From contig CAWIHK010000006.1 in NCBI GenBank assembly GCA_963835935.1, positions 44,119-108,118 of the forward strand: DNA of 64,000 nucleotides. Reading direction: 5' to 3'. Made by a program: the position numbers and the translations under genes. Under the pieces are notes generated by a model, which searched no databases, was not told the origin of the DNA, and saw nothing but the letters and a program-made list of their open reading frames with translations. Below are positions 4,793-52,461 of the stretch, in pieces (positions within the stretch are counted from its first letter, which is position 1; each line of letters starts with the position of its first letter). The DNA comes from Ignavibacteriota bacterium (GTDB lineage: Bacteria; Bacteroidota; Ignavibacteria; UBA10030; CAVZMI01).

Positions 4793-4865
4793 GGGGCTAT
4801 AGCTCAGCTGGGAGAGCGCCTGAATGGCATTCAGGAGGTCAGCGGTTCGATCCCGCTTAGCTCCA
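4793..4865 (+). tRNA. tRNA-Ala (anticodon GGC)
   Basis: Cloverleaf folds by eye; anticodon loop aTGGCat; G3:U70 Ala identity pair; TΨC 'GGTTCGATCC'; CCA not encoded. Confidence 0.9.
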
Positions 4866-4867
4866 CA

Positions 4868-5006: not shown

Positions 5007-6743
5007 TTATTTCATCAATATTATCTTACACGATTTTGTTTCGTATGGAGTTTTTAGCCGGCAAATATATATTCCACTCGAAAGTGCCCGATTGTTTTCA
5101 TCCTGGCAATCCCATCGCAAGGTATGTTCTCCATTCTTTTCGACGCCATTGATTAATCCGCACATCTTTTGTCCGATCACATTATAGATGTCTATCTCAA
5201 CTTGTTCAGCTACTGGAAGTGTATAACGGATGATTATATCCGAATTGCCGATCGGATAGGGATTCGGTCCAGATGATAAATTCATGCGTTGATTATTTTC
5301 GTGCGAATTCGACACTGAAACAGCATGTACAAATTCACCATTGACCTGAATTTCCCAGAGGGAGTATCCATAAGGTGTGCCCCGTCTGTTTCCGTGCCAC
5401 CGTACATATCGTGCCTCGGTAGGCGGTACAGAAAGAAATTCAGTTCCACCGTTGCTCTTTGAAGTCGCATAGATTGCCGTCCATAACTGTTTATCGGAAG
5501 AAACATCAATAGTATAATCCAACCCGTAGGATGTTCCCCAGATGAGCGTCACATTTTTGATCCGGTAAATACCCTGAAGATCCACCGAAAGCCATTGCGG
5601 ATCTTTATATGGGCTTGACCATCTGGTTGTAAGATCTCCGTCAAAGGCAAACGATGCTTTTACTGTATTGTCGCTGTATGCCGAATATTCACATGGTTTG
5701 TTGAGCGCGACATTCGGCAACAGCACATCAATTTTTTTAAAGTTCGAAGAGATTTCACTTGTTCCATCGGTGAACGATACTTTCGCGTGAATGAGATATT
5801 CGTTTTGGGTCACGTTATTCCAATTGAATATAAATGGAGGTGTGGATGATTCTCCAATTTTGGTTGAATCTAAAAAATATTCTACCTTTGTGGCAGGAGT
5901 ATCCGACTCGACGTTTGTACTGAATTGAATATTCGCCGGAGTGTCATAAATTAAATTTATTGGAGATGTCAATGTAATTTTTCTCTCTCGCTTTGGGTGA
6001 TTGTAGAAAAAATCGACGACGAGATCTGTGCAGTCGATAGGGTAGAACAGCCAGGTATGTCCGCCGTGAGCATATGTGACGAACTCAACATCTGCATCGA
6101 TTGCATTTGACCGCCATAGTTGTGCGATTGTCCCGACATAGTTGTACACTGTGTCCGGTGTGGCCGAACATTGATTTTTTTGCCGCCAGGCAGCCAATCC
6201 GGCTTGATCCGTGCTGTAGGGAACGGTGGCATCATCCACGGCATGAATTGCGAGAACTGGTTTTGGTGAAGGAATTGTCTGGCTGGATCCTGTCCAGTAT
6301 CCCGCTACCGGCGCGATTGCCGCAAATTTTTCCGGTAACTTAGAGCCCAGCGTGTAACAAAAAAATGCTCCATCCGAATGTCCGGTTGCATAGACACGTT
6401 TTGAGTCGATATGAAACTTTTTCTGGAGAGTATCCAGGAGAACAGAGACGAAATCAATGTCATTGTCGTGGGAGTTCCATCCTCCTTTGATGGAGGTGGG
6501 ATAAACGACGATATATTTCATGATTTCCGATCGTTCATTGAATCCGCTTCTGAACAATGCACTGTCCGAGCCGCTCAATCCGTGGAAAACAAAAATTAAT
6601 GGATACGATGTAGAACCGTCGTATGCCGGGGGAACATGGACGAGATATGCTCTGTTGTATCCGTTGTGCATCATGAATTGTTCCTGGGCTGCCAGATGGT
6701 AGAAGGAGAGACATAAAATTAGAAAACTCAAAATTATTTTCAT
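5007..6743 (-). CDS. Secreted esterase (PHB-depolymerase/LpqC-like α/β-hydrolase) with F5/8 type C discoidin domain and T9SS C-terminal sorting domain
   Basis: Signal peptide; 'FVFHGLSGS…GHSDGAFFCY' (GxSxG); discoidin-like 'CEYSAYSDNTVKASFAFDGDLTTRWSS…WLSVDL'; C-terminal T9SS CTD. Confidence 0.75.
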   Translation of the reverse strand: MKIILSFLILCLSFYHLAAQEQFMMHNGYNRAYLVHVPPAYDGSTSYPLIFVFHGLSGSDSALFRSGFNERSEIMKYIVVYPTSIKGGWNSHDNDIDFVSVLLDTLQKKFHIDSKRVYATGHSDGAFFCYTLGSKLPEKFAAIAPVAGYWTGSSQTIPSPKPVLAIHAVDDATVPYSTDQAGLAAWRQKNQCSATPDTVYNYVGTIAQLWRSNAIDADVEFVTYAHGGHTWLFYPIDCTDLVVDFFYNHPKRERKITLTSPINLIYDTPANIQFSTNVESDTPATKVEYFLDSTKIGESSTPPFIFNWNNVTQNEYLIHAKVSFTDGTSEISSNFKKIDVLLPNVALNKPCEYSAYSDNTVKASFAFDGDLTTRWSSPYKDPQWLSVDLQGIYRIKNVTLIWGTSYGLDYTIDVSSDKQLWTAIYATSKSNGGTEFLSVPPTEARYVRWHGNRRGTPYGYSLWEIQVNGEFVHAVSVSNSHENNQRMNLSSGPNPYPIGNSDIIIRYTLPVAEQVEIDIYNVIGQKMCGLINGVEKNGEHTLRWDCQDENNRALSSGIYICRLKTPYETKSCKIILMK

Positions 6744-31746: not shown

Positions 31747-33210
31747 GAGAATGTCCCACTCTTAGTTGAAATTCAGCGATAGAAATTTGAGGTTGTTGTC
31801 AACATAAATATTTTTTATGCGACAAGCAAATTTTGTTTTTTATTTTTATTCAACGCGTCAATTAATATTGGTAATGCACCGTAACCTTTTATTCTTCTAA
31901 ATCCTTTTTCAGCTTCCAACACTCCAGCACAAACCCAGCGTGTAACTTGTTCTTCAGTCTTCCAATATTTTACATTCCTCTCTTTCTGTCGAACAACTGA
32001 ATTGAGCGACTCGATCAGATTTGTCGATTGCAATGATTTGCGCAGAGCAAGAGGAAGATTAAGTCGATGCAGCGTCAACGTTTCATCCAATCCTTCACGT
32101 AAACTTTTTGCAGCCGACGAATGCTCTTGCTCCAAGTCCTGCGCAATTGATAGCAGCCGTTCTTTTGCTTTCACTGCATCGTTCATCGAATATGCTTCCG
32201 TCATTCTTCTGCTGACAACTCCCTGAAGATTTTTTGGAAGATAACTTAACACATTACGTTTCTTGTGAACTGTGCAGCGTTGGACATGTGTGTCTGTTCC
32301 AAGTATATCAATGACAGCTCGCCGCAAGGCTTTCGATCCGTCCATCACTACCAAATATAATTGCTCTGTGTGTAATCCACGATCTATCAAATTTTCCAAC
32401 AAACCTTTCGCTATCGTCGTATTTTCTGCCGATCCCTCCCATACCCCAAGAACATGCTTAATCCCTTTAGTATCAATTCCTAACGCGATCACTACTGTAT
32501 AATCACCAATGTGTATTCCATCGATCATCAACACTGCCAACTCTAATTCTTCCAGCCGTCGTTCAAACATTTCTTTTATCTTTTGAGCCGTTGCTGCAAT
32601 CATTCTTCTGCTTACACTGCTCGAACTCGTTCCATACCCTTCTAGAAATTTACTCACTCCTTCTTCATACCTTCGTGTGCTAATGCCTCGAATCAAATCT
32701 CGATATGTCCTCTGAATTAATTCTGCAGACTTACTAAATAATCCGTACGTCTTCAAACTCCACGCATGCTTGTTCTCAACATCCACAACTCGGGTGACAA
32801 ATATTTTTTTCCTCTTTCCATTTACGATCACCGATCCTGGATTTGTTCCATGTCGTGTGCACTGCCGATCAGGTAAATGTTTATATCGTTCGCCTGCAAG
32901 TGATTTGACTTCTTCTTCCATGATCGTCTCCATCACTTGTAAGGAGATGCCTTCCATTTCTTCCGAGAGCGATTCTTTTAATCCCAACAAAACTTCTTTC
33001 ACTGTGTCAACGATCTTTTCTTCCAACTTCTCAAAATGTTTTCCGCTCGTACTGTTGATTACTTCATTCGCTTTTGCTACTTTGATCTTGTGCATGGCGA
33101 TAGTCCTTTCTTTGGTGTTTAATAATTTGAATCGTTATTTTCTCACCTCAGATTAACTATCGCCTGTATTTTTTTCAAGCGCTATTTTCAACTAACTTCG
33201 GGACATCACC
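31747..33210 (-). mobile_element. IS256-family insertion sequence with imperfect terminal IRs and 8-bp target-site duplication TATTAAAA (31739..31746 and 33211..33218)
   Basis: Left end GAGAATGTCCCACTCTTAGTTGAAATTCAGCG vs rc of right end GGTGATGTCCCGAAGTTAGTTGAAAATAGCG; identical flanking octamers. Confidence 0.8.
31815..33095 (-). CDS. IS256-family (Mutator-type) transposase
   Basis: 426 aa; '…LQSTNLIESLNSVVR…' and DDE-region features typical of IS256 transposases. Confidence 0.85.
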   Translation of the reverse strand: MHKIKVAKANEVINSTSGKHFEKLEEKIVDTVKEVLLGLKESLSEEMEGISLQVMETIMEEEVKSLAGERYKHLPDRQCTRHGTNPGSVIVNGKRKKIFVTRVVDVENKHAWSLKTYGLFSKSAELIQRTYRDLIRGISTRRYEEGVSKFLEGYGTSSSSVSRRMIAATAQKIKEMFERRLEELELAVLMIDGIHIGDYTVVIALGIDTKGIKHVLGVWEGSAENTTIAKGLLENLIDRGLHTEQLYLVVMDGSKALRRAVIDILGTDTHVQRCTVHKKRNVLSYLPKNLQGVVSRRMTEAYSMNDAVKAKERLLSIAQDLEQEHSSAAKSLREGLDETLTLHRLNLPLALRKSLQSTNLIESLNSVVRQKERNVKYWKTEEQVTRWVCAGVLEAEKGFRRIKGYGALPILIDALNKNKKQNLLVA

Positions 33211-35173: not shown

Positions 35174-38100
35174 ATGAAAAGAGCTATTCGCGTTGTTTTC
35201 ACAATCAGTATACTCATGCTGTTTTTTTTCATCAGGGGCAGTGTCGGCCAGACAATTCGATCTGACAGCCTTTTACAAATGTCAAAAACCCTTTATCAAT
35301 CGATAGAACGATTGGAAACAAATCATAGTACCGGTGTTCCTCGATCGATACGCGGTAAGTTGACTTCAAATGTAAATTTAAATGATATTTCACAGGCGAA
35401 ACAGTTCCTCCATAATTCGAGGTCACTGTTTCGCATGAACGAAGTCACAGACGATTTCGTTATGGAAAAAGTTGATAAAGACGAAATCAGTATGACTCAT
35501 GCAAAATTGCAACAGAATTATAAAGGCGTCCCGGTTTGGGGATCGGAGTTGATTCTCCACAGCGATCAGAACAATACTGTTGTTGAAATAAACGGCAGAT
35601 TCACTCCTGATTTGAATATTGATATGACCATAGGAATTCAATCTTCAAATGCTTTAAACATTGCACTTGCCGATCTTGGTCCGGCAGATTATCGCTGGGA
35701 AAATAAAGATCAAGAAAATATTATCAAGCAAGTTTTCAATGACAATAGCAGAACATGGAAACCTAATCCAGTGTTGGTTGTTGCGCCGCGCAATAGCAAC
35801 TTCGACAAAAGTGAATATAGGCTTGCGTGGAAAATGACTATTGCTGTTGATGGCGCGAAAATGGGTAATTGGGAATATTTCATCGATGCAAAGACTGGTG
35901 AAATTATAAATAAATACAATTCAATGGCGGATGCAATCGGCAGCGGTGTCAGCAATTATAATGGTATAGTCCCTATTTATTCTGAATGGAATTCTACAAC
36001 ATATCAAATGATTGATAGCATTCGGAATATTATCACTACTGTTTATTATAATCCTAATAATCAATTTGGAGATCCTACACTCCAATATCAACTCTTAACT
36101 GATGATGATAATTATTGGGACCAAAATAAATCGGCAGTTGATGTGCATTGGGGAATTGCACAAGTGTATGATTTCTATAAGAATGTCTTCAACCGAAACG
36201 GTTTTGATAATTCCGGCTCCATAATTCTGAACGAGGTGAATTTTCCAATCTCCCCTAATAATTGTAATGCAGCCTGGAATGGAACACAAATGGTATACGG
36301 ATCAGGCGATGGACAAAACTTCTCGTCTGTTACTTCTCTTGATATTTGTGGCCATGAACTAACGCATGCCGTTACTCAATATACTGCAGGCTTAGGACAT
36401 CAAGGTGAATCCGGCACTTTGAATGAAGCGTTTTCGGATATTTTTGGAATGGCAATTGAATTCTACGCAACTCCATCGAAAGCGGACTGGAAAATTGGGG
36501 AAGATTGTTATACACCGGGAATCAGCGGCGATGCTCTGAGATATATGAACAATCCAAAAGCTGGAAATCAGCCGGATACTTACCAAGGAATGAATTGGGA
36601 TACGACAGCAAATCCGGATGTGCACACAAACGATGGTGTATTGAATTATGCTTTCTATCTGATGACGGTCGGAGGAAGTGGTACTAATGATAACGGTACT
36701 TCGTACTCTGTCGCAGGTGTCGGACTTGTTGAGACGAGAGCGATTGCATACAGAGTATTGACAGTTTATTTGCACTCCAGCGCTCAATATGCAGATGCAC
36801 GAACTGCATTTCTATCGGCGGCATCCGACTTGTACGGTGCAGGTGGAGCGGAATATCTGGCAGTATTAAATGCGTTTGCAGCGGTTGGAGTTGAAGCGAA
36901 GCTGACTATTGCAAATAGCTTCAACACCGGCGTAATAATGGTGAATGGTGGAACGGTGGCCAGCGGCTACATTTATCCCGCCGATATTACTTCCGTGCAG
37001 ACTTATCAGGCGATTCCTCAACATTCTGGCTCATATGATTATGTCTGGAATATGAATGGCGCTGATTCGAGTATTAGTTATTGGAATCTAAAGCCTTCTG
37101 GAGGTCGACAAAGTAGAATTTCAGGTGCAACAAATATTTCTTACACATACTCCGTTGCCAAATCTGACAACAACGCAACGTACATAGCAGATTTAAAGAA
37201 GAACTTTGCAATAAGCAGAAACGATCAAACTGAATTTGACGGAACTATATCTGACGGTATAGTTGCACATATTGTAGAACAGAATTCCGGTTCTATATCA
37301 GCTCCAGCGCAACAAAAAATTAACAATCACAATTACATATTTTATAATTGGTCTGACAGCTCCACGGCTAATCCGCATACAATAACTCCAACCGATAATA
37401 CCACGCTTACCGCCAACTACAAAGGTCACATGCTCTCTAACACCTCTGCCGCCACCGCCGGCAACAGCAGCCGTAAAATTGCGTATGATGATATCGACGG
37501 TTCGGACCATGTTACTCATGCTGTTTATTCTTCCTGCGGAAGTATCTGGTACGTGCGGAATGTTAATGGGACCGGCTGGAGCAACGAAATAAAACTTGGT
37601 GATGGAATCAATCCATCAATTGCAGTAACCGCTCCGCAAGATGGGCATATTTATACACATGTTGTGTGGGAGCAGAATGGCAGAGTATATTATCGAAGAT
37701 CGGGAAATGATGGAGTTACATGGGATGCAGCATTGAGTTTCCCTGGTTTGGAAGCAAGCGGATACAATGCAACGCCGGTTGTCATAGGCAATTATGAAGC
37801 TATGGTTATCTGGTGTTACGGCAGTCAGGCTAATGGCGGAGGCTTGTACGCGTGTGTCGAACCGGCAAGTTTAAATATCCAGGGAGCTATTGCCGGTACA
37901 AATTGGAAAACACATTCACCTTCCGGTGTAGAGCAGAATTGGCATTTGAGTGCAGTTCCCAATTTTTCTTCTAATCATTTTTTCCATATCGCTTATGCAA
38001 CCGACACTGCAATCGTATATGATAATCTTCAGGTATATACGTCGCCTCCTTCAATCTTTTCAACATGTAAAATTTCCGTCTCACCATCGCCAAACACCGG

Positions 38101-39977
38101 GAATACAAATCCATCTATCGCATGCGCATACGATCTGGTAGATACGAGTTTGAGAAAGGTTGGCGTTGCATGGGAGAACTCAACAAATCACAGGGTGTAT
38201 TATCGAGAATCGGCAAATGATGGAAGCACTTGGGGAACTGTAAAAGAGTTTACACACGGCACTGACCAACTTTCGCAGCCTGTTGTCAGTTTCGGAACTA
38301 TGAGTAATTCAGCGACTGTTCTATTTCAAGATAACAATCAGATAGGAAGGGTGGTAAAAGATCTTGGCCGCGGAACATGGTCGCCAATAATGAATTTAGG
38401 CACAGGAACAGGAGAACATTTGCCATCATGCACTGATGTATCGCCAGCGGCGTTGTGGGTGACCGGAAGTTCATCGCCATTCACCATTAATACTTCTGTT
38501 CTTACTGTTCTTCCAACTCCTACACAATTATCGCCAACAAGTGGAGCAACTAATATATCAACAACACCAATAATTAAATGGAACACAGTGGCGGGAGCAG
38601 CATCGTATTGGCTGCAGGTGGCAACTGATACAGGATTTAATTCGTTAGTTGTGAATCAAGCAGGGATTACTGGAACATCTGATACAATAACAACAGCACT
38701 TTCAAACAACACTACCTACTACTGGCATGTGAATGCAGCGGATCCAAGCGGAGATCAAAGCAGTTGGTCTTACACATGGTCATTCAAAACTACACCTCCA
38801 CCACCACCGCCTCCGCCGCCACCACCAACACTTTCATCACCTACAAACGGCATGGCAAATGTACCATTAACACAATCATTAAGCTGGAGCAACGTCGTAC
38901 CGGCTACAAGTATCTAAAAATAGCGACTTATCCTCACCTGTTTATGACAATTCATCGCTCACAGGATTATCGATTCCGATAAGCGGTCTTGGTCTTACCA
39001 ACGGTACGAACTATTATTGGCGAGTAAATGCAACGAATGCAGGAGGAACGAGTGCGTGGTCGGCGGTATGGCAGTTCCAGACGGTGATAACACCGCCGAC
39101 ATTAACTTCACCTTTACCTATAAGCGGAGCCGTTAATGTACCGATACCAACGACATTGATTTGGGGAGTAGTTACGGGAGGTCAATCGTATCAAGTGCAG
39201 GTATCGACCGATCCGGGATTTTCATCCGCATCATCTATAGGAAGTAATACAACCTCGTGTACAATAACGCTTTCAAACAACACAACCTACTACTGGCATG
39301 TGCGTGCATCGAATCAAGGCGGAGGTCAGAGCGGCTGGTCGTCTACAGGAATATTCACAACAGTACCCGCACCGCCAGCAGCTCCAACACTTTTATTACC
39401 TGCAAATAATGCTACAGGTGTATCGAGAACGCCAACACTAACTTGGAGTGCAGCTGCAAGAGCAACATCATATACAGTGTGTATTGCATATACAAATACC
39501 AATGTTGGGAATGTAACGTCATGGAAAGAGACTAATACACTTCAAGCCAATACAAAATATTCCTGGTCAGTATATGCAAGTAATGCTGGAGGAAATTCCC
39601 CAATGTCGACATTATATTATTTTACAACAGGCACACAAATATCTAAGAGAGTCATAAGTTTAGACCAGAATGATGGTTCGGAGTCTGATTATGTGCCAGA
39701 TATTTATAATCTGTATCAGAATTATCCTAATCCTTTCAATCCTTCAACAACGATACAATTCGATCTGCAAAATACAACGAAGGTGATATTGAAAATATAT
39801 GATATATCAGGGAAGGAAATTCAAACATTAGTTAATTGTTATCTTGCAGCGGGATCGTACACAATTCGATGGAACGGACAGGATGCGAATGGTAGAAACG
39901 TGCATAGCGGAATGTATTTCTATCGTCTATCAACAGAAATGTTTACAGGCACAAAAAAGATGATGCTGTTGCGTTAA
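35174..39977 (+). pseudogene. Large secreted M4 (thermolysin-like) metalloprotease with BNR/Asp-box repeats, four FN3-like repeats, poly-Pro linker and T9SS C-terminal domain; reading frame broken near 38898..38917 (ORFs 35174..38917 and 38883/39084..39977)
   Basis: HExxH 'CGHELTHAV' + 'LNEAFSDIFG'; 'YYRRSGNDGVTW','YYRESANDGSTWG' Asp-boxes; FN3-like repeats continue across the frame break; C-terminal 'LYQNYPNPFNPSTTIQF…' CTD. Confidence 0.65.
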
Positions 39978-40073: not shown

Positions 40074-40230
40074 TTAACGGCTTCAGAAGTCGAAACGCGG
40101 TTCGACAAGCTCACCGCAAGAAATTTCGACCAACATTGCAGTTCGATTTTTAATTGATAGCTGATAGCACTAAACTGCGCTTCATCTAATCACATTACGC
40201 AATCACCTTCTCCTTTTTAATCCAATTTTT

Positions 40231-41163
40231 TTGTACATTAATTCTATGAGTTCAGAGATAAAAGAAGATAAAATAATCCGGGCAGGTTATATTGCGATTA
40301 TCGGTGAACCGAATGTCGGCAAATCAACGCTCATGAACGCATTAGTTGGACAAAAATTGTCTATCGTTTCCAGTAAACCACAAACTACGCGACGCAGGGT
40401 TCTGGGAATAAAAACAGTCGATGAATGTCAGATGATTTTCTTTGACACTCCGGGTATCCTGAAGCCGCGTTATCTTTTGCATGACGTGATGATGTCGTAC
40501 GTCGAGCACGCAATGAGCGATGCCGACATTTTACTTGTCCTTGTCGATAGTACCCGGCCCAGGATAAAACGAATACCGCCCGAAGTCCGGGAAAAGCTGG
40601 AGAGACTTCAGACTGCACTTTTTCTTGTTCTGAATAAAATCGACAAAGTGAAAAAAGCAGAACTTTTACCGTTGATAGACAATTACCAAAAAGAATTTCC
40701 TTGGAAAGAAATAGTTCCCGTGAGTGCGTTGACCGGAGAAGGAATAGAACTATTGTCGAAGTTGGTACAACAGTATCTACCCATGCATCCGCCGTATTTC
40801 CCGCCGGATGCTGTGAGTGAACATCCGGAACGTTTTTTTGTGGGAGAAATCATCCGTGAAAAAATATTTGAAAAATTCTCGGAAGAAATTCCATACTCCG
40901 TTGAAGTGGAAATAGTCGATTACAAGGAGCGGGAAAATGGAAAATATTTTATCAGCGCTGAAATCACGGTTGAACGGCAATCGCAAAAAGGAATGGTCAT
41001 CGGAAAAAAGGGAGAAGCTCTGAAAGTTATAGGCGAGCTTGCACGGCATGACATCGAAAAATTTGTCGAACATCAGGTTTTTCTCGAACTTCATGTCCGT
41101 GTGCGGGAGAAGTGGCGTTCCTCGGAAACCTTATTGAAAAGAATGGGATATTCAACAGAATAA
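40231..41163 (+). CDS. era: GTPase Era (start may be 40246)
   Basis: G1 'IGEPNVGKST', G3 'DTPG', G4 'NKID', C-terminal KH domain. Confidence 0.9.
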   Translation: MYINSMSSEIKEDKIIRAGYIAIIGEPNVGKSTLMNALVGQKLSIVSSKPQTTRRRVLGIKTVDECQMIFFDTPGILKPRYLLHDVMMSYVEHAMSDADILLVLVDSTRPRIKRIPPEVREKLERLQTALFLVLNKIDKVKKAELLPLIDNYQKEFPWKEIVPVSALTGEGIELLSKLVQQYLPMHPPYFPPDAVSEHPERFFVGEIIREKIFEKFSEEIPYSVEVEIVDYKERENGKYFISAEITVERQSQKGMVIGKKGEALKVIGELARHDIEKFVEHQVFLELHVRVREKWRSSETLLKRMGYSTE

Positions 41164-41178
41164 ATCGGAGATATTTTT

Positions 41179-42048
41179 ATGGCAGACGTTTTTCCTTTTC
41201 AAGCGCTTTACTATAATCCGGCAAAACTAAAATTACAGCAGGCTTTTTCACAACTCGATTCCGGCGCCGAAACTCCTCCGGCTTATCACATCTCGCGTTT
41301 GCTTACACCGGATGACGATGCGGTGCGGACTAATCTCATTCAACAGTGGACGAAAGAGGGAATTATAACAACCGATGAATCAAAAGATTTTTATATTCTG
41401 CGCCAGAGTTTTTCCGGAGAAGGCGGTATAAAATTCAGTCGCACGGGGTTTATAGGGCTTTGGAATCTTCCTGAAGCTATCCTAAATCAGTATTGTGAAG
41501 ATTCATACGATGGGCCGGTTGAGTCGGATGTCCTATCATTTCGGCCATTGCTGGGATTTTATGACGATACACTTAACAGAATCGATCGGTATATATCATT
41601 TGCGATCAAATCGATTCCGCTGCTCGATTGTGTGAGTGGCGATGTGCGTTCCACAATATGGAAAATCAATGACGGCGGTTCGATTGCAGGAATTTCGCGT
41701 GAGATGAAAACGAAAAATATTCTTCTTGCGTCTGCAAAACAGGATATGCAGCGTTATTGTGTTTTTTATCGGAAGCAAAATATTCCTCCGGCGAATGCGT
41801 TATTCATGACTCTGTTATTTAACGTGAGAGAGGAAGGGATCGTTAATTCAGCGTGGAATCGCTTGATGGGGACTCAAAACAAATTGAGAATTAATGAATT
41901 AAAAAATGAAATTGGTTATGAGGGTAATACACTCGATCACGTGATGATTTCTGTGCTCGACAAATCGGACACGGTGGTCGGGGAAGAATTCGATCTCTAT
42001 CCGCCATTACCGGTTGGTTTGATCTTTCATTATATCTCGAAACTCTGA
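41179..42048 (+). CDS. DUF1015-like hypothetical protein
   Basis: N-terminus 'MADVFPFQALYYNPAK' resembles DUF1015 family start; shorter than typical. Confidence 0.35.
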   Translation: MADVFPFQALYYNPAKLKLQQAFSQLDSGAETPPAYHISRLLTPDDDAVRTNLIQQWTKEGIITTDESKDFYILRQSFSGEGGIKFSRTGFIGLWNLPEAILNQYCEDSYDGPVESDVLSFRPLLGFYDDTLNRIDRYISFAIKSIPLLDCVSGDVRSTIWKINDGGSIAGISREMKTKNILLASAKQDMQRYCVFYRKQNIPPANALFMTLLFNVREEGIVNSAWNRLMGTQNKLRINELKNEIGYEGNTLDHVMISVLDKSDTVVGEEFDLYPPLPVGLIFHYISKL

Positions 42049-42086
42049 TTGTCAGCAAGTTGTTGTAATAAAAAAAGGGATCGTCA

Positions 42087-44090
42087 GTGCAAAAATTATT
42101 ATTCGGCTCTCTCGTCTTTCTTTTTATGATGTTGTCGGAAAGCCCGGCAAGCACCACCGGAATTTATCATTACGAATTAAACATAAATCTGGCCGGGTGT
42201 TTCCAGAATAATCTCCCACAATTTTCGGCACATGAAAAAATTTATTACCGGACAGTTTCACCATATCCATCACAACTCACATTTGATTGTGTACAACTCA
42301 CAATCGATTCAGTCAAAATAGGATCGACAAGAAAGAATGATTCTACGACGTTGGCGAACATTATCATTCCAGTCAGTTCGGCTGATTTTCAAACAGACAC
42401 TACGGTTATCAATATCTGGTATCGTTATGTCGGAACGGGAACTCGTGGTTTCTATTATTATTCTGAAGAAGCAGGAGCAACCTTGGCTCCGCTTGTATAT
42501 ACAATGAGTGAACCGACCGACGCGCCTTACTGGTTTGTAACTGTGAATGATAATAAAGTAAAACCATCACTCAACACAAATATTACAGTTCCTGTCGGAT
42601 ATCAGGCGGCGTCGAATGGGTTGTTGATGAATACAGTCGCGAATGCCAATAGTACTGTCACCTTTCAATGGCAGGAAACTCACCCGATTGCAATGTATCT
42701 CATATGCTTCACTTGTTCGCAGTACAGAGAATTTTCAGCCTACTACCATCGTGTCACAAATCCTGCCGACTCAATTGAAATAAAATATTATATCTGGAAC
42801 GATGACTACGATTCGCCCCTGACCGATCAAATTACTCATAGTGCGGTGAAATGTTTTGTCAATGTGCCTCGAATGTTGGAATTTTATTCCCGGACATACG
42901 GAGAATATCCTTTTGATAAATATGGAATGGCGGCTGTTTATCCATTTGCTTTCGGCGGAATGGAACACCAAACGATGACCACCATCCACCGGCACTGGTT
43001 GGAAGTCCAAAAAGGACTTGCTGAACGCGGCTTCGACGAAGATGCAATTGCCCACGAGCTGTCTCACCATTGGTTCGGCGATTTGATTACGTGTGAAACA
43101 TGGAACGACATCTGGCTGAATGAAAGTTTTGCCACTTATTCCGAAGTGCTGTGGGAAGAATTTCTTAACGGCCAACAAGGAAAGCTTGTTCGATTGCAAA
43201 GGGGAATGAATTTTTCCAATCCCAACTGGCAGTATACGGTCTATGCGCCGCAAGGATACATTTTTGGAGATGAAGTGTACAACAAAGGTGGCTGGGTGCT
43301 TCATATGTTGCGGTCGTATATCGGCGACTCTTCTTTCTTTCGTTCGTTACGTTCCTACGTAGCCGATTCGACGTATCGATATAAAACAGCTCGTACCGAT
43401 CAATTCACTGCTCTCGTTCAAAAAATTTCAGGAAAGAATCTCACAAAATTTTTCGATCAATGGCTTAACCACGTCGGATGGCCGGTGTATGAATATTCTT
43501 CGCGGCAAACTCCGGTCGGCAGTGATTATCTTATAACGATCCATCTTGAGCAAGTGCAAAACGATCCAACGAAGTCGGGTGATATTCCGCGAGACGGGAC
43601 GATATACGAAATGCCGGTCGAGTTTCGCTTTTATTCGGGTGCCAGTGACACGACAATCACATTTATGAATTCGAAAGAAGAAGATGTTTTTTCGGTATCC
43701 TTGCCATATAAAATCGATAGTGTAGCTTTCGATCCTGATTTAAAGATTCTTAAGCAATTATATAATGTGAACATAGTGACGAATGCGGGTCAGTTTGTCG
43801 TGCCGGTGCCAAGTTCGTACAAATTGTATCAAAATTATCCTAATCCGTTCAACCCATCTACAATCGTCAAATATGATCTTCCTGTTGCAGGAAATGTTCG
43901 AATCGAAGTGCTCGACGTTCTGGGCCGTGTTGTCGCTACGATAATTGACGAGTTCAGGCTTCCCGGATCATTCCTTCTGACATGGGACGGCCATGATTAT
44001 CGCGGGAGTGCGCTCCCAAGCGGAGTTTATTTCATGAGGATGAAGTCGAATACTTATTCCTCGGTAAGAAAAATAATGATACTGCGATGA
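42087..44090 (+). CDS. M1-family zinc aminopeptidase with T9SS C-terminal sorting domain
   Basis: 'HELSHHWFGDLITCETWNDIWLNESFATY' (HExxH-x18-E); 'GAMEN'-like 'GGMEH'; C-terminal 'LYQNYPNPFNPSTIVKYDL…' CTD. Confidence 0.8.
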   Translation: MQKLLFGSLVFLFMMLSESPASTTGIYHYELNINLAGCFQNNLPQFSAHEKIYYRTVSPYPSQLTFDCVQLTIDSVKIGSTRKNDSTTLANIIIPVSSADFQTDTTVINIWYRYVGTGTRGFYYYSEEAGATLAPLVYTMSEPTDAPYWFVTVNDNKVKPSLNTNITVPVGYQAASNGLLMNTVANANSTVTFQWQETHPIAMYLICFTCSQYREFSAYYHRVTNPADSIEIKYYIWNDDYDSPLTDQITHSAVKCFVNVPRMLEFYSRTYGEYPFDKYGMAAVYPFAFGGMEHQTMTTIHRHWLEVQKGLAERGFDEDAIAHELSHHWFGDLITCETWNDIWLNESFATYSEVLWEEFLNGQQGKLVRLQRGMNFSNPNWQYTVYAPQGYIFGDEVYNKGGWVLHMLRSYIGDSSFFRSLRSYVADSTYRYKTARTDQFTALVQKISGKNLTKFFDQWLNHVGWPVYEYSSRQTPVGSDYLITIHLEQVQNDPTKSGDIPRDGTIYEMPVEFRFYSGASDTTITFMNSKEEDVFSVSLPYKIDSVAFDPDLKILKQLYNVNIVTNAGQFVVPVPSSYKLYQNYPNPFNPSTIVKYDLPVAGNVRIEVLDVLGRVVATIIDEFRLPGSFLLTWDGHDYRGSALPSGVYFMRMKSNTYSSVRKIMILR

Positions 44091-44097
44091 ATCAACT

Positions 44098-46023
44098 ATG
44101 GCAGAAGACCGTGTCGATATTCATATCGCAATCACACCGGAAGAAATCTCGCTTGAACAACGATTGAGTTCGCTGCCGACGGAGCCCGGTGTCTATTTGT
44201 ATAAAAATGAAACCGGGAAAGTGATCTATGTCGGGAAAGCGAAAAACCTGCGGAACAGAGTGCGGCAATATTTTCAAAAGTCGCGCCCGCAAATGCCGCG
44301 AATCGATGTCATGGTTAAACAGATTTCCGGCGTCGATCTTATTTTAACGGATACAGAAGTCGAAGCGCTGATTCTCGAAGCCAATCTTATAAAAAAATAC
44401 AATCCCAGGTACAATGTCCTTTTGAAAGATGATAAAAGTTACCCGTACATTGTGGTGACTAACGAGCCTTACCCTCGTGTTTTTGTCACACGGAGAATAA
44501 TTAAAGATGGTTCGACTTATTTCGGGCCATACGCGGATGTCTCGACGATGCGAACTGCATTAAAAACTGTTCGAGATGTTTTTAGAATCCGCAGCTGCAA
44601 TTATCATTTGGATGACGAGTCGGTTGCAAAGCGCAAATTCCGTTTGTGCCTTGATTATCACATTAAAAAATGCGACGGCCCGTGCGAAGGCCTGATTAGC
44701 CGTGAACAATATGCAAAGATGATTGAGGAAGTAAAGGAGTTACTGCATGGAAGAATTTCCTCGCTTGTAGAAAAATTACAGCTTCAGATGCAAGATTTAT
44801 CTGAGAGAATGGAATTCGAGGAAGCGGCCGTCGTTCGTGATAAAATTGATGCATTGAATGTTTACACGGGAAAGCAGCGAGTCGTCGATCTTGAACATAC
44901 GGAGCGCGACATAGTTTCCTATGCCGCAGAGGATGACGACGCATGCGGAGTAATTTTCAAAATACGAGATGGAAAAGTGGTCGGCCGTCATCATTATTAC
45001 ATGAGTAATGTTGACGGGAGGGAACATGAAGAAATTTTATTGAATCTTTTAGAACGATATTATCTGGAAGCAGAAGATATTCCGGTTGAAATCATGATCC
45101 CCGAATCGATTACGGAAGAAACGACGCTTGAGAAATGGCTTTCAGAAAAAACGAATCAGAATGTGAAGATTATTCTTCCGATTGAAGCCGAACAGAAGAA
45201 GCTGATCGCATTTTGCCAGACAAATGCCAAATACTTATTGGACGAATTAAAACTGCAGAAAGAGCAGCGCGAGGATTTCATCCCGAAAAGTATTTCTGCG
45301 CTTCAGGAAAATCTTCATCTTCCAACTCTGCCGCGCCATATAGAATGTTTCGATATATCGAACACACAGGGAACGGACACCGTCGCTTCGATGGTGGTGT
45401 TTGCCGACGGTAAACCGAGGAAATCCGAATACAGGAAATTTAAGATTACATCGGTCGACGGTCCGAACGATTTTGCAAGCATGCAGGAAGTTATTCATCG
45501 ACGTTACAAACGGTTGATCGAAGAACAAACAATTTTTCCGGATCTCATTCTAATCGACGGTGGTAAAGGTCAGTTATCGAGCGCTCTTGAAGCGCTTCAC
45601 CAATTAGGAATCGAGAATCAGCCGATCATTGGTTTGGCGAAACGCCTGGAAGAAATTTTTCGTCCGGGCGACAGCGATCCTTATCCAATTCCAAAAACTT
45701 CAGCCGGGCTGCGGTTATTACAGCGAGTTCGGGACGAAGCCCACAGATTTGCGATAACTTACCACAGAAGCTTACGCGCGAAACGTACTCTTCGCACTGA
45801 ACTCAATCTCATTGAAGGAATCGGAAAAAAACGTGCAAAGGAATTGCTTGAGACGTTCGGATCGGTTCAAGGAGTTGTATTCGCAACCCACGAGCAACGT
45901 GCCGCGGTTGTTGGAGAAAAGGTTGCCCGGAAAATAATGGAGCATTTTTCAATCGATTCCGATCAACAGAATGGGAATGCAAATAATCTTGCAATAACGA
46001 ACGATCACAGTTCATCTTTTTAA
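44098..46023 (+). CDS. uvrC: Excinuclease ABC subunit C
   Basis: GIY-YIG 'PGVYLYKNETGKVIYVGKAKNLRNR', UvrBC, RNase H-like and HhH domains in order. Confidence 0.95.
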   Translation: MAEDRVDIHIAITPEEISLEQRLSSLPTEPGVYLYKNETGKVIYVGKAKNLRNRVRQYFQKSRPQMPRIDVMVKQISGVDLILTDTEVEALILEANLIKKYNPRYNVLLKDDKSYPYIVVTNEPYPRVFVTRRIIKDGSTYFGPYADVSTMRTALKTVRDVFRIRSCNYHLDDESVAKRKFRLCLDYHIKKCDGPCEGLISREQYAKMIEEVKELLHGRISSLVEKLQLQMQDLSERMEFEEAAVVRDKIDALNVYTGKQRVVDLEHTERDIVSYAAEDDDACGVIFKIRDGKVVGRHHYYMSNVDGREHEEILLNLLERYYLEAEDIPVEIMIPESITEETTLEKWLSEKTNQNVKIILPIEAEQKKLIAFCQTNAKYLLDELKLQKEQREDFIPKSISALQENLHLPTLPRHIECFDISNTQGTDTVASMVVFADGKPRKSEYRKFKITSVDGPNDFASMQEVIHRRYKRLIEEQTIFPDLILIDGGKGQLSSALEALHQLGIENQPIIGLAKRLEEIFRPGDSDPYPIPKTSAGLRLLQRVRDEAHRFAITYHRSLRAKRTLRTELNLIEGIGKKRAKELLETFGSVQGVVFATHEQRAAVVGEKVARKIMEHFSIDSDQQNGNANNLAITNDHSSSF

Positions 46024-46213
46024 AAAGTCAGCCTTTTCGATAAATCTTTTATTTTTAATTAAAGTTTGAGACATATATTCCGATATATTTAATAATGAAT
46101 ATTTAAAATGCATATTCATCACTATGTCAGTTCCTGACTTCAATTAGTAGGATTTTAATAACAATAAATGGTTTAATTCTGATTTTTCATCTGAAAATAA
46201 AAAGGAGTGTGTA

Positions 46214-47044
46214 GTGATCATGGACCAAGATATCAAAGTTGTGATAGCTGCACCAACATTTCAATCGTCATTTCATACATCTCTTTGTGAGCATCACAAG
46301 AAGTGGTTTAAACCGCACGAGATGACGTTACGGTCTGTGACAGACGACCCGAAAGAACAAAAAAATAGTTTACTCAGAGCGCTCGCACAAACAAAACCTA
46401 CTGCTTTAATTGCTATTTCGATACGGCCGGATATCGATGTTGTTGAGGCATACTCTGCTGCGAACGTACCGATCGTATTGATTGACGAAGAGATGCTCAA
46501 CGTGTCGACAATTACCACGGACAATTTCATGGGTGGATGCCTTGCGGGAGATCACCTGATTTCGAAAGGCAAAAAAAAGATCGCCATTGTGGCCGGCAGA
46601 ACTGGTGTGCAGGGTGGATACAACGCGGATCAGAGAATCAAAGGATTCAAGCATGCAGTGGGTTCTGCAAAGATGACCGTATCTCCATCATCCATTTTCG
46701 AAGTGATACGTTATTCTCGTGAGGAAGGAATGGAAATCTTTCCGAAATTAATGGATATTGGCGTCGATGCCGTTTTTTGTGCTGCGGGAGATCATTGTGC
46801 CTTTGGACTGATTAGTGCAGCAAAAGCCATGAATAAAAAAGTTCCTGACGACATTGCCATCGTAGGCTTTGATGATTTGCGCATCGCGCAGCTTTCTAGT
46901 CCTATGCTTACAACTATCAAGCAACCTTTGGAGAAAATAGTCGAAGCTGCGTATGACATGGTTGTAAATCAAAGAGACGAAATTCTTCGTAAGCCGCAAA
47001 AGATCGTATTAAAACCGGAACTTATAGTTCGTCAATCATCATAA
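46214..47044 (+). CDS. LacI-type periplasmic-binding-fold ligand-binding domain protein lacking the N-terminal HTH
   Basis: '…VGFDDLRIAQLSSPMLTTIKQPLEKIVEAAYDMVVNQ' matches LacI C-terminal domain; upstream AT-rich DNA encodes no HTH. Confidence 0.5.
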   Translation: MIMDQDIKVVIAAPTFQSSFHTSLCEHHKKWFKPHEMTLRSVTDDPKEQKNSLLRALAQTKPTALIAISIRPDIDVVEAYSAANVPIVLIDEEMLNVSTITTDNFMGGCLAGDHLISKGKKKIAIVAGRTGVQGGYNADQRIKGFKHAVGSAKMTVSPSSIFEVIRYSREEGMEIFPKLMDIGVDAVFCAAGDHCAFGLISAAKAMNKKVPDDIAIVGFDDLRIAQLSSPMLTTIKQPLEKIVEAAYDMVVNQRDEILRKPQKIVLKPELIVRQSS

Positions 47045-52374: not shown

Positions 52375-52378
52375 TGAG

Positions 52379-52461
52379 CGGAGAGCGTAGGATTCGAACC
52401 TACAAGCCCTTGCGGGCGCCGGTTTTCAAGACCGGTGCAATAGCCGTTCTGCCAGCTCTCC
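52379..52461 (-). tRNA. tRNA-Ser (anticodon UGA), type II with long variable arm
   Basis: rc: GGAGAGC…CCGGTCTTGAAAACCGG…CGCCCGCAAGGGC…GGTTCGAATCC…GCTCTCCG; anticodon loop cTTGAaa. Confidence 0.8.

What the first reader, a model, noticed from the sequence alone, without database searches (positions are those of the whole stretch)
38885..38925. M4 protease-T9SS gene broken exactly where a 14-nt tandem repeat appears to have collapsed to one copy; the same 14 nt encode consecutive peptide segments in two frames
**Seen in sequence.** The 1247-aa ORF ends at 38917 ('…SWSNVVPATSI*'). The +1 frame opens at 38883 and continues through three more FN3-like repeats and the T9SS CTD to 39977. All FN3-like repeats follow the pattern '…W-x8-SY-x-LQV…'. 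In this repeat, frame A gives 'W SNVVPATS' and frame B gives 'YRLQVSKNSD', but both are read from the same nucleotides: 38897..38911 'gtaccggctacaagt' = VPATS, and 38898..38912 'taccggctacaagta' = YRLQV.

**Inference.** Inserting one extra copy of TACCGGCTACAAGT (38898..38911) recreates a perfect in-frame 'WSNVVPATSYRLQVSKNSD' that matches the consensus of the other repeats. The simplest explanation is that the intact allele carries a 14-bp perfect tandem duplication and this allele has lost one unit, giving a frameshift because 14 is not a multiple of 3. This could be slipped-strand phase variation that severs the protease from its T9SS sorting signal, or a recent inactivating deletion.
Basis: partly seen in the sequence, partly recalled or inferred. 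Interest (0 to 1): 0.65.

Follow-up and report, generated by a model that had tools for sequence, protein, structure and literature searches.

The report
Frameshifted secreted protease gene, 14 bases missing
A gene for a secreted zinc protease is broken by a frameshift that looks like the loss of 14 bases inside one of its repeat domains, cutting the enzyme off from its export signal; this is an ordinary gene-inactivating deletion (or an assembly error), not a genetic switch.

Summary
The sequence facts are correct. A 1247-aa M4 (thermolysin-type) protease ORF stops at 38917. The +1 frame is open from 38883 to 39977 and encodes the rest of FN3-like repeat 2, two further repeats and a T9SS type A sorting domain.

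Only 10 nt lie between the repeat's conserved Trp (38885-87, frame A) and Tyr (38898-900, frame B). In 774 of 816 homologous repeats these residues are 8 residues (24 nt) apart, and never fewer than 6. A net loss of 14 nt is therefore well supported. One- or two-base repairs score 16-18 bits worse against the family HMM.

Duplicating TACCGGCTACAAGT puts Pro where the family has Gly (72% Gly, 0.2% Pro), and it scores below leaving the residues unknown. Nucleotides 38883-38900 are the homologue of the A-G-A-T-S-Y codons.

No perfect tandem is needed. A deletion between short direct repeats (GCTGG/GCTGGA, one copy left at 38883-38888) explains everything and has a precedent in an intact relative. 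None of 149 intact relatives has anything close to a 14-nt tandem here.

Nothing supports phase variation, because no repeat tract remains. No close ortholog or second allele was found, so a real deletion cannot be told from an assembly error.

The parts
35174..38917 (+). Frame A ORF, 1247 aa. It holds a signal peptide (MKRAIRVVFTISILMLFFFIRGSVGQ, judged by eye), FTP (35450-35602), Peptidase_M4 (35939-36379), HELTH zinc motif (36353-36367), NEAFSD (36422-36439), Peptidase_M4_C (36386-36892), an unassigned middle region with two Asp-box-like motifs, FN3-like repeat 1, and the first third of repeat 2.
38501..38791 (+). FN3-like repeat 1 (intact, frame A), 102.7 bits on the family HMM
38795..38827 (+). 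Linker of 11 proline codons between repeats 1 and 2. The frame is kept across it, so it is not the site of the frameshift.
38807..39083 (+). FN3-like repeat 2, broken. The strand up to the conserved Trp is in frame A (to 38887). From A-G-A-T-S-Y-R-L-Q-V onward it is in frame B (from 38883).
38883..38888 (+). Junction GCTGGA, read as (A)GC TGG A = Ser-Trp in frame A and as GCT GGA = Ala-Gly in frame B. This is the inferred single surviving copy of a short direct repeat that flanked the lost 14 nt. The breakpoint cannot be placed more precisely than 38882..38897.
38898..38911 (+). Its frame B reading YRLQV is the true one. Its frame A reading (V)PATS is judged to be out-of-frame noise.
38915..38917 (+). 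Premature TAA that ends frame A, 6 codons after the last position where frame A can still be coding
38883..39977 (+). Frame B open stretch of 364 codons with no further stop or frameshift
39084..39362 (+). FN3-like repeat 3 (91.8 bits)
39363..39629 (+). FN3-like repeat 4 (64.0 bits)
39723..39965 (+). T9SS type A C-terminal sorting domain (Por_Secre_tail 37.0 bits against cut-off 27; TIGR04183 37.9 bits against cut-off 23)

Best explanation
This was one gene of about 1610 codons. It encoded a Sec signal peptide, an M4 zinc protease, a large unassigned region, four FN3-like repeats and a T9SS sorting domain. In this sequence 14 nt are missing from the loop between the conserved Trp and Tyr of repeat 2.

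The most likely event (inferred) is a single slipped-mispairing deletion between two short direct repeats, GCTGG(A)...GCTGG(A), lying 14 nt apart. Such repeats arise naturally from Ser(AGC)-Trp(TGG)-[codon starting with A] and from Ala(GCT)-Gly(GGA). One copy survives at 38883-38888.

Translation from the original start now ends at 38917. The 1247-aa product would still cross the inner membrane, but it lacks the sorting domain. It therefore could not be exported by the T9SS. This last step is inferred from what is known for gingipains (PMC4804311).

The lesion is a one-way inactivating mutation, not a switch. It is young, because the 364 downstream codons carry no second defect.
For: Shown:
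- Frames and domains as described.
- Trp-Tyr spacing is 8 residues in 181/205 repeats from related loci and 593/611 from related proteins, with a minimum of 6. Here 10 nt remain, against 24 expected.
- Family HMM scores: 100.8-107.1 bits for 14-nt repairs, at most 88.9 bits for a 1-nt repair and at most 90.9 bits for a 2-nt repair.
- 38883-38900 (GCT GGA GCA ACG TCG TAC) aligns with repeat 1's GCG GGA GCA GCA TCG TAT at 14 of 18 positions. The 14-mer has its near-matches exactly at the equivalent codons of repeats 1 and 4. Frame B is therefore truly coding from 38883, while frame A's Trp sits at the correct distance from the upstream strand. The two frames overlap in GCTGG.
- An intact relative in L028 has AGC TGG AAT GCC TCG ACT GGA GCG, that is CTGGA twice, 14 nt apart. 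Exact runs of 4 nt or more at offset 14 occur in 26 of 149 intact repeats.
- The rest of the 64-kb window shows tidy long ORFs and no other split gene. A neighbouring M1 peptidase keeps its sorting domain. This argues against a generally error-ridden assembly.
- An independent Logan assembly of run ERR10755942 matches the adjacent 6.1 kb at 6128 of 6129 bases.
Against: - No intact allele or close ortholog was found. The best relatives share 67% identity over the N-terminal half only, or no more than about 55% over the repeats. The ancestral sequence, and so the length of the direct repeat, is inferred and not observed.
- Only one assembly covers the site. The Logan contig starts 129 nt after the end of the gene, and no Logan gene product from the protease region is on record. 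An assembly or consensus error is therefore not excluded.
- The perfect-tandem reconstruction WSNVAGATSY scores 6.5 bits above 'unknown residues' (p about 0.03 by simulation). A longer repeat, up to the full 14 nt, cannot be ruled out.
Confidence: 0.55

Rival explanations
1. Assembly or consensus artefact. The organism's gene is intact, and the 14 bases were lost when the metagenome-assembled contig was built or polished.
For: - The contig is a 403,769-bp metagenome-derived record known from a single assembly.
- The 364 downstream codons are flawless, as expected if the gene is really intact.
- No independent contig covering the site could be retrieved.
Against: - A clean 14-nt loss in non-repetitive, non-homopolymer sequence is not a typical sequencing or polishing error (established knowledge, not tested here).
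- No other split gene is seen in 64 kb.
- The neighbouring 6.1 kb is reproduced at 6128 of 6129 bases by an independent assembly.
Confidence: 0.25
2. Collapse of a perfect 14-nt tandem duplication, with the unit in register 38883..38896 (GCTGGAGCAACGTC x2, encoding WSNV then AGATS in two frames).
For: - It gives the highest-scoring reconstruction: 107.1 bits on the HMM and 42.0 bits on the PSSM, above the median of 29.6 bits for real repeats.
- The gain over 'unknown residues' is reached by only 3.0% of simulated random deletions.
- A long perfect repeat would delete at a high rate.
Against: - None of 149 intact relatives has 9 or more matches out of 14 at offset 14. The maximum is 8 and the mean is 4.3, no higher than at other offsets. 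None of this gene's own repeats 1, 3 and 4 does either.
- The resemblance of the shifted reading to W-[NS]-x-[VS] is partly built into the codons of G-A-T-S.
- The test is post hoc, and p = 0.03 is weak.
Confidence: 0.12
3. The intact allele carries TACCGGCTACAAGT twice (WSNVVPATS + YRLQV), and slipped-strand phase variation toggles secretion of the protease.
For: It restores the correct length, and 'ATS' before the Tyr matches the consensus.
Against: - It puts Pro at W+5, where the family has 0.2% Pro and 72% Gly, and Val at W+4 (2.9%).
- Its PSSM score is 31.4 bits, below the 35.5 bits for unknown residues and the 42.0 bits for the alternative.
- It treats the nucleotide-level homology of 38883-38897 to the A-G-A-x-S codons of repeats 1 and 4 as coincidence.
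- No repeat tract is present.
- A one-copy allele cannot regain the lost unit by slippage, so the change is not reversible in the way contingency loci are (established knowledge).
Confidence: 0.02
4. Programmed +1 recoding (ribosomal frameshift or transcriptional slippage) makes a full-length protein from the sequence as it stands.
For: Frame B is +1 relative to frame A and is intact. An A5 run begins inside the stop codon (38916-38920).
Against: - Any single-base shift gives a Trp-Tyr loop of 3 residues, or removes the YRLQV strand. Such products score 75-89 bits against 101-107 bits. No loop shorter than 6 residues is seen in 816 repeats.
- No known shifty motif is present, and A5 is too short for efficient transcriptional slippage (established knowledge).
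Confidence: 0.01

Closest known systems
Spontaneous deletions between short direct repeats by slipped mispairing (the classical E. coli lacI deletions and the CTGG frameshift hotspot; cited from my own knowledge: Farabaugh et al. 1978, Albertini et al. 1982)
   Same: A small deletion whose junction carries one copy of a short sequence (here GCTGG/GCTGGA) that can be assigned to either flank. The length is not a multiple of 3, so the result is a frameshift and a premature stop.
   Different: It was not observed.
Phase-variable contingency genes with simple sequence repeats (for example in Neisseria, Haemophilus and Campylobacter; from my own knowledge)
   Same: A frameshift in the coding region of a surface or secreted protein gene switches off the full-length product.
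   Different: There is no tract of repeated units. The unit would be 14 nt with at most two copies. The present state has one copy and no route back by slippage. No population heterogeneity data exist.
T9SS cargo proteins lacking the C-terminal domain (gingipain CTD truncations, PMC4804311)
   Same: A Sec-exported protease is deprived of its sorting domain. The expected outcome is retention in the periplasm and no secretion or surface attachment.
   Different: Here the loss comes from a natural frameshift about 1 kb upstream of the sorting domain, which also removes two and two-thirds FN3-like repeats. The consequence is inferred, not measured. The organism is an uncultured member of the Ignavibacteriota/Bacteroidota group, judged only from the names of distant homologues.

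Membership tests
Peptidase family M4 (thermolysin-like) | Peptidase_M4 and Peptidase_M4_C domains above Pfam gathering scores | tested here: met
   PF01447 scores 123.7 bits (cut-off 22.4) and PF02868 scores 163.8 bits (cut-off 24.4). The FTP propeptide motif scores 47 bits.
Peptidase family M4 (thermolysin-like) | HExxH zinc-binding motif and a downstream Glu ligand (NExxSD) | tested here: met
   HELTH at aa 394-398 (36353-36367) and NEAFSD at aa 417-422 (36422-36439).
T9SS type A cargo | C-terminal sorting domain (TIGR04183 / PF18962) at the very C-terminus of the same polypeptide as the passenger | tested here: not met
   The domain is present and scores above cut-off (37.9 bits against 23; 37.0 bits against 27). 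It lies in the +1 frame, downstream of the stop at 38917, so the protease ORF as it stands does not carry it.
T9SS type A cargo | N-terminal Sec signal peptide | tested here: inconclusive
   MKRAIRVVFTISILMLFFFIRGSVGQ has the usual charged, hydrophobic and small-residue layout by eye. No predictor was available.
Simple-sequence-repeat phase-variable (contingency) locus | A tract of several tandem copies of a short unit in or next to the ORF | tested here: not met
   TRF (minimum score 30) finds only the proline-codon run at 38793-38831. The repeat finder finds nothing at the junction. Each candidate 14-mer occurs once.
Simple-sequence-repeat phase-variable (contingency) locus | Copy-number heterogeneity within a population or between strains | not testable with these tools
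No second allele was found in the protein, genome or metagenome collections.
Deletion between short direct repeats (slipped mispairing) | One copy of the repeat is retained at the junction and is assignable to both flanks | tested here: met
   GCTGG(A) at 38883-38888 is needed both for Ser-Trp (frame A, correct spacing to the upstream strand) and for Ala-Gly (frame B, homologous at the DNA level to repeats 1 and 4).
Deletion between short direct repeats (slipped mispairing) | The parental sequence has two copies flanking the deleted segment | not testable with these tools
   No parental allele was found. An intact relative in L028 has CTGGA twice, 14 nt apart, at the same place, which shows the arrangement occurs naturally.
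Programmed +1 ribosomal frameshift | A shift-prone site that yields a product conforming to the family, conserved among relatives | tested here: not met
   All single-base shifts give products 12-30 bits worse, with loop lengths never seen in the family. No relatives are available to test conservation.

The most novel reading that the evidence does not exclude
The intact allele really does carry a perfect 14-nt tandem duplication (GCTGGAGCAACGTC x2) whose two copies encode consecutive, consensus-conforming loop residues in two reading frames. Its high-frequency collapse would then act as a built-in, mostly one-way switch that stops export of the protease in part of the population.
Probability: 0.04. 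Interest if true: 0.5.

Novelty: already known. Interest (0 to 1): 0.1.

Why it matters
It matters little beyond annotation. The two ORFs (and the 124-aa fragment called from 39603) should be annotated as one frameshifted M4 protease/T9SS cargo gene, a pseudogene or an assembly error, rather than as separate proteins.

The case also illustrates a trap. After any frameshifting deletion the two frames overlap. In a compositionally biased repeat, the out-of-frame reading can mimic the consensus and suggest a 'dual-coding tandem repeat' that is not needed to explain the data.

Tried and rejected
1. Search for an intact ortholog or second allele.
- The full-length reconstructed protein, the 493-aa tail and a 161-aa junction segment were searched against 5.8 billion proteins.
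- The tail was searched against GTDB genomes and JGI metagenomes.
- An exact DNA pattern with a variable gap spanning the junction was run against metagenomes (0 hits).
- Nothing closer than 67% identity (N-terminal half) or about 55% (repeats) was found.

2. Retrieval of the source contig or an independent assembly by exact protein look-up.
- One Logan contig (ERR10755942) starts 129 nt after the end of the gene.
- The 1247-aa ORF is filed under an unrelated 56-aa cluster representative.

3. One-base or two-base repair of the frame. Rejected on loop length and HMM score.

4. A built-in 14-nt periodicity of this loop in the family that might explain the dual-frame resemblance. Not found: mean identity at offset 14 is 4.3 of 14, like other offsets.

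5. A high indel error rate in the assembly.
- No other split gene is apparent.
- The LacI-family ORF without an HTH at 46214 has no HTH in another frame upstream.

6. A literature search for the run accession found nothing.

Full report
**What is in the sequence**

Frame A runs from ATG 35174 to TAA 38915-17 (1247 aa) and ends ...PLTQSLSWSNVVPATSI*. The +1 frame (frame B) is closed by TAA at 38880-82. From 38883 it reads AGATSYRLQVSKNSD... without a stop to 39977.

Frame A carries these features:
- FTP propeptide motif
- PepSY (below cut-off)
- Peptidase_M4 and Peptidase_M4_C
- the zinc motifs HELTH and NEAFSD

Frame B carries fn3/Ig_Rha78A_N-type repeats and a T9SS type A sorting domain. Por_Secre_tail scores 37.0 bits and TIGR04183 scores 37.9 bits, both above cut-off.

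A family HMM built here finds four repeats:

| Repeat | Coordinates | State |
|---|---|---|
| 1 | 38501-38791 | intact, frame A |
| 2 | 38807-39083 | broken across the two frames |
| 3 | 39084-39362 | intact, frame B |
| 4 | 39363-39629 | intact, frame B |

The motif is W-x7-SY. Frame B holds the remainder of repeat 2 plus two repeats, not three more.

**How much is missing**

I collected homologous repeats from 39 related loci and from the closest proteins, and aligned them with an HMM seeded on repeats 1, 3 and 4. The consensus is TLSWNAVSGATSYRLQVSTS.

The conserved Trp and Tyr are separated by exactly 8 residues in 181 of 205 repeats from the loci, and never by fewer. The same holds in 593 of 611 non-redundant repeats from the proteins, where the minimum is 6.

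In the window only 10 nt lie between TGG (38885-87, frame A) and TAC (38898-900, frame B), where 24 nt are expected. The net loss is therefore 14 nt.

| Repair | Best HMM score |
|---|---|
| 14-nt repair | 100.8-107.1 bits |
| Removing one base | 88.9 bits |
| Adding two bases | 90.9 bits |

**Which 14 nt, and was there a tandem repeat?**

Any register of a 14-nt duplication between 38894 and 38911 restores the length without a stop. Length alone therefore says nothing about the unit.

On a position-specific matrix from 560 non-redundant repeats:

| Reconstruction | Score |
|---|---|
| Missing residues left unknown | 35.5 bits |
| WSNVAGATSY (unit GCTGGAGCAACGTC, 38883-38896) | 42.0 bits |

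It places Val at W+4, where Val is 2.9%.

The DNA points the same way. 38883-38900 (GCT GGA GCA ACG TCG TAC) matches repeat 1's GCG GGA GCA GCA TCG TAT at 14 of 18 positions. A mismatch search with that 14-mer lands on the equivalent codons of repeats 1 and 4.

Frame B is therefore truly coding from 38883. Frame A's 'VPATS' is out-of-frame noise in a Ser/Thr/Ala-rich protein.

Frame A's Trp sits at the right distance from the upstream PLTQSLS strand. The two true readings thus overlap in GCTGG (38883-87). That is what a deletion between two short direct repeats leaves behind:

...AGC TGG nnn nnn nnn GCT GGA GCA... becomes ...AGC TGG A GCA...

Because 75% of family members have Asn, Ser or Thr at W+1, all of which have codons starting with A, the repeat was probably at least GCTGGA.

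An intact relative in L028 has just this arrangement: AGC TGG AAT GCC TCG ACT GGA GCG, with CTGGA twice, 14 nt apart.

**Is a perfect tandem needed or likely?**

Two tests bear on this.

First, I deleted 14 nt at every position of this loop in 149 intact relatives (2980 simulations). For each I asked how much the best tandem-duplication reconstruction gains over 'unknown residues'. The observed gain of 6.5 bits is reached in 3.0% of simulations. The top simulated cases show why. GGN GCN ACN TCN read one base out of frame gives W-[SG]-[DN]-[VC], which mimics the consensus W-[NS]-x-[VS].

Second, none of the 149 intact repeats has 9 or more identities out of 14 at offset 14. The mean is 4.3 and the maximum is 8, no different from other offsets. 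Exact runs of 4-6 nt at that offset occur in 26 of them.

A perfect 14-nt tandem in the parent is therefore possible but unprecedented, and it is not required. A short direct repeat is sufficient and has a precedent.

Neither 14-mer has a second copy nearby, and TRF sees no tandem at the site.

**Real or artefact?**

The window otherwise shows long, tightly packed ORFs with no other split gene. A second T9SS cargo gene, an M1 peptidase at 42087-44090, is intact.

An independent Logan assembly of run ERR10755942 reproduces window 40106-46234 at 6128 of 6129 bases. It begins 129 nt after the end of the protease gene. No Logan product from the protease region is on record.

The gene's own products (the 1247-aa ORF and a 124-aa fragment called from 39603) are known only from the one 403,769-bp NCBI/ENA contig. 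No close ortholog exists in the collections searched.

A real deletion therefore cannot be separated from a consensus error without the reads. I put about 0.25 on an artefact. If the lesion is real it is young, because the 364 codons after the break have no further stop and still score 64-104 bits per repeat.

**Consequence and mechanism**

The 1247-aa product keeps its signal peptide and catalytic domains but loses two and two-thirds repeats and the sorting domain.

For gingipains, truncating even the last residues of the sorting domain causes accumulation in the periplasm (PMC4804311). By inference this protease would not be exported. The downstream open frame has no signal peptide of its own, so it would be useless even if translated.

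**Phase variation and recoding**

Phase variation is not supported. No repeat tract remains, and a single copy cannot be re-expanded by slippage, so at best this is a one-way change. Programmed recoding is rejected on loop length and on the absence of a shift site.

**Verdict**

This is an ordinary frameshifted gene. The 14-nt net loss is well supported, and the most probable cause is slipped mispairing between short direct repeats.

Noticed in passing
window 27982..29388 (+) and 31815..33095 (-): Two transposase genes lie 2-7 kb upstream of the protease gene: an IS110 family gene (DEDD_Tnp_IS110 + Transposase_20) and a Mutator family gene. I saw no link to the frameshift.
   Followed up: no
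window 42087..44090 (+): A second T9SS cargo gene: an M1-family peptidase with an intact Por_Secre_tail domain, 2 kb downstream. It shows that the organism uses T9SS cargo and that neighbouring genes are undamaged.
   Followed up: partly
window ~36900..38500 (ORF A aa ~580-1110): About 530 residues between the M4 domains and the FN3-like repeats have no Pfam match. They contain two Asp-box/BNR-like motifs, SGNDGVTW at 37700 and SANDGSTW at 38210. This region is shared with the closest M4 homologues P0001-P0008.
   Followed up: no
window 38795..38827: A run of 11 proline codons forms the linker between FN3-like repeats 1 and 2. It is the only tandem repeat TRF reports near the finding, and the reading frame is kept across it.
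   Followed up: yes
window 46214..47044 (+): A LacI-family ligand-binding domain protein (276 aa) without the N-terminal HTH. No HTH is present in any frame upstream, so it looks like a paralogue without an HTH rather than a second frameshift.
   Followed up: partly
protein collection (P0121-P0123): The 1247-aa ORF is clustered under an unrelated 56-aa representative, so the search for homologous proteins cannot return it. This is a database oddity, not biology.
   Followed up: partly
L040 (Logan ERR10755942) = window 40106..46234: An independent short contig from the same run matches the window at 6128 of 6129 bases and breaks 129 nt downstream of the protease gene. The protease gene and the 353-aa gene upstream are absent from Logan as complete products. 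I did not establish why the assembly breaks there.
   Followed up: partly
window 4793..4866 (+) and 52378..52461 (-): tRNA-Ala(GGC) and tRNA-Ser(TGA). These are the only Rfam or ARAGORN hits in the window.
   Followed up: yes
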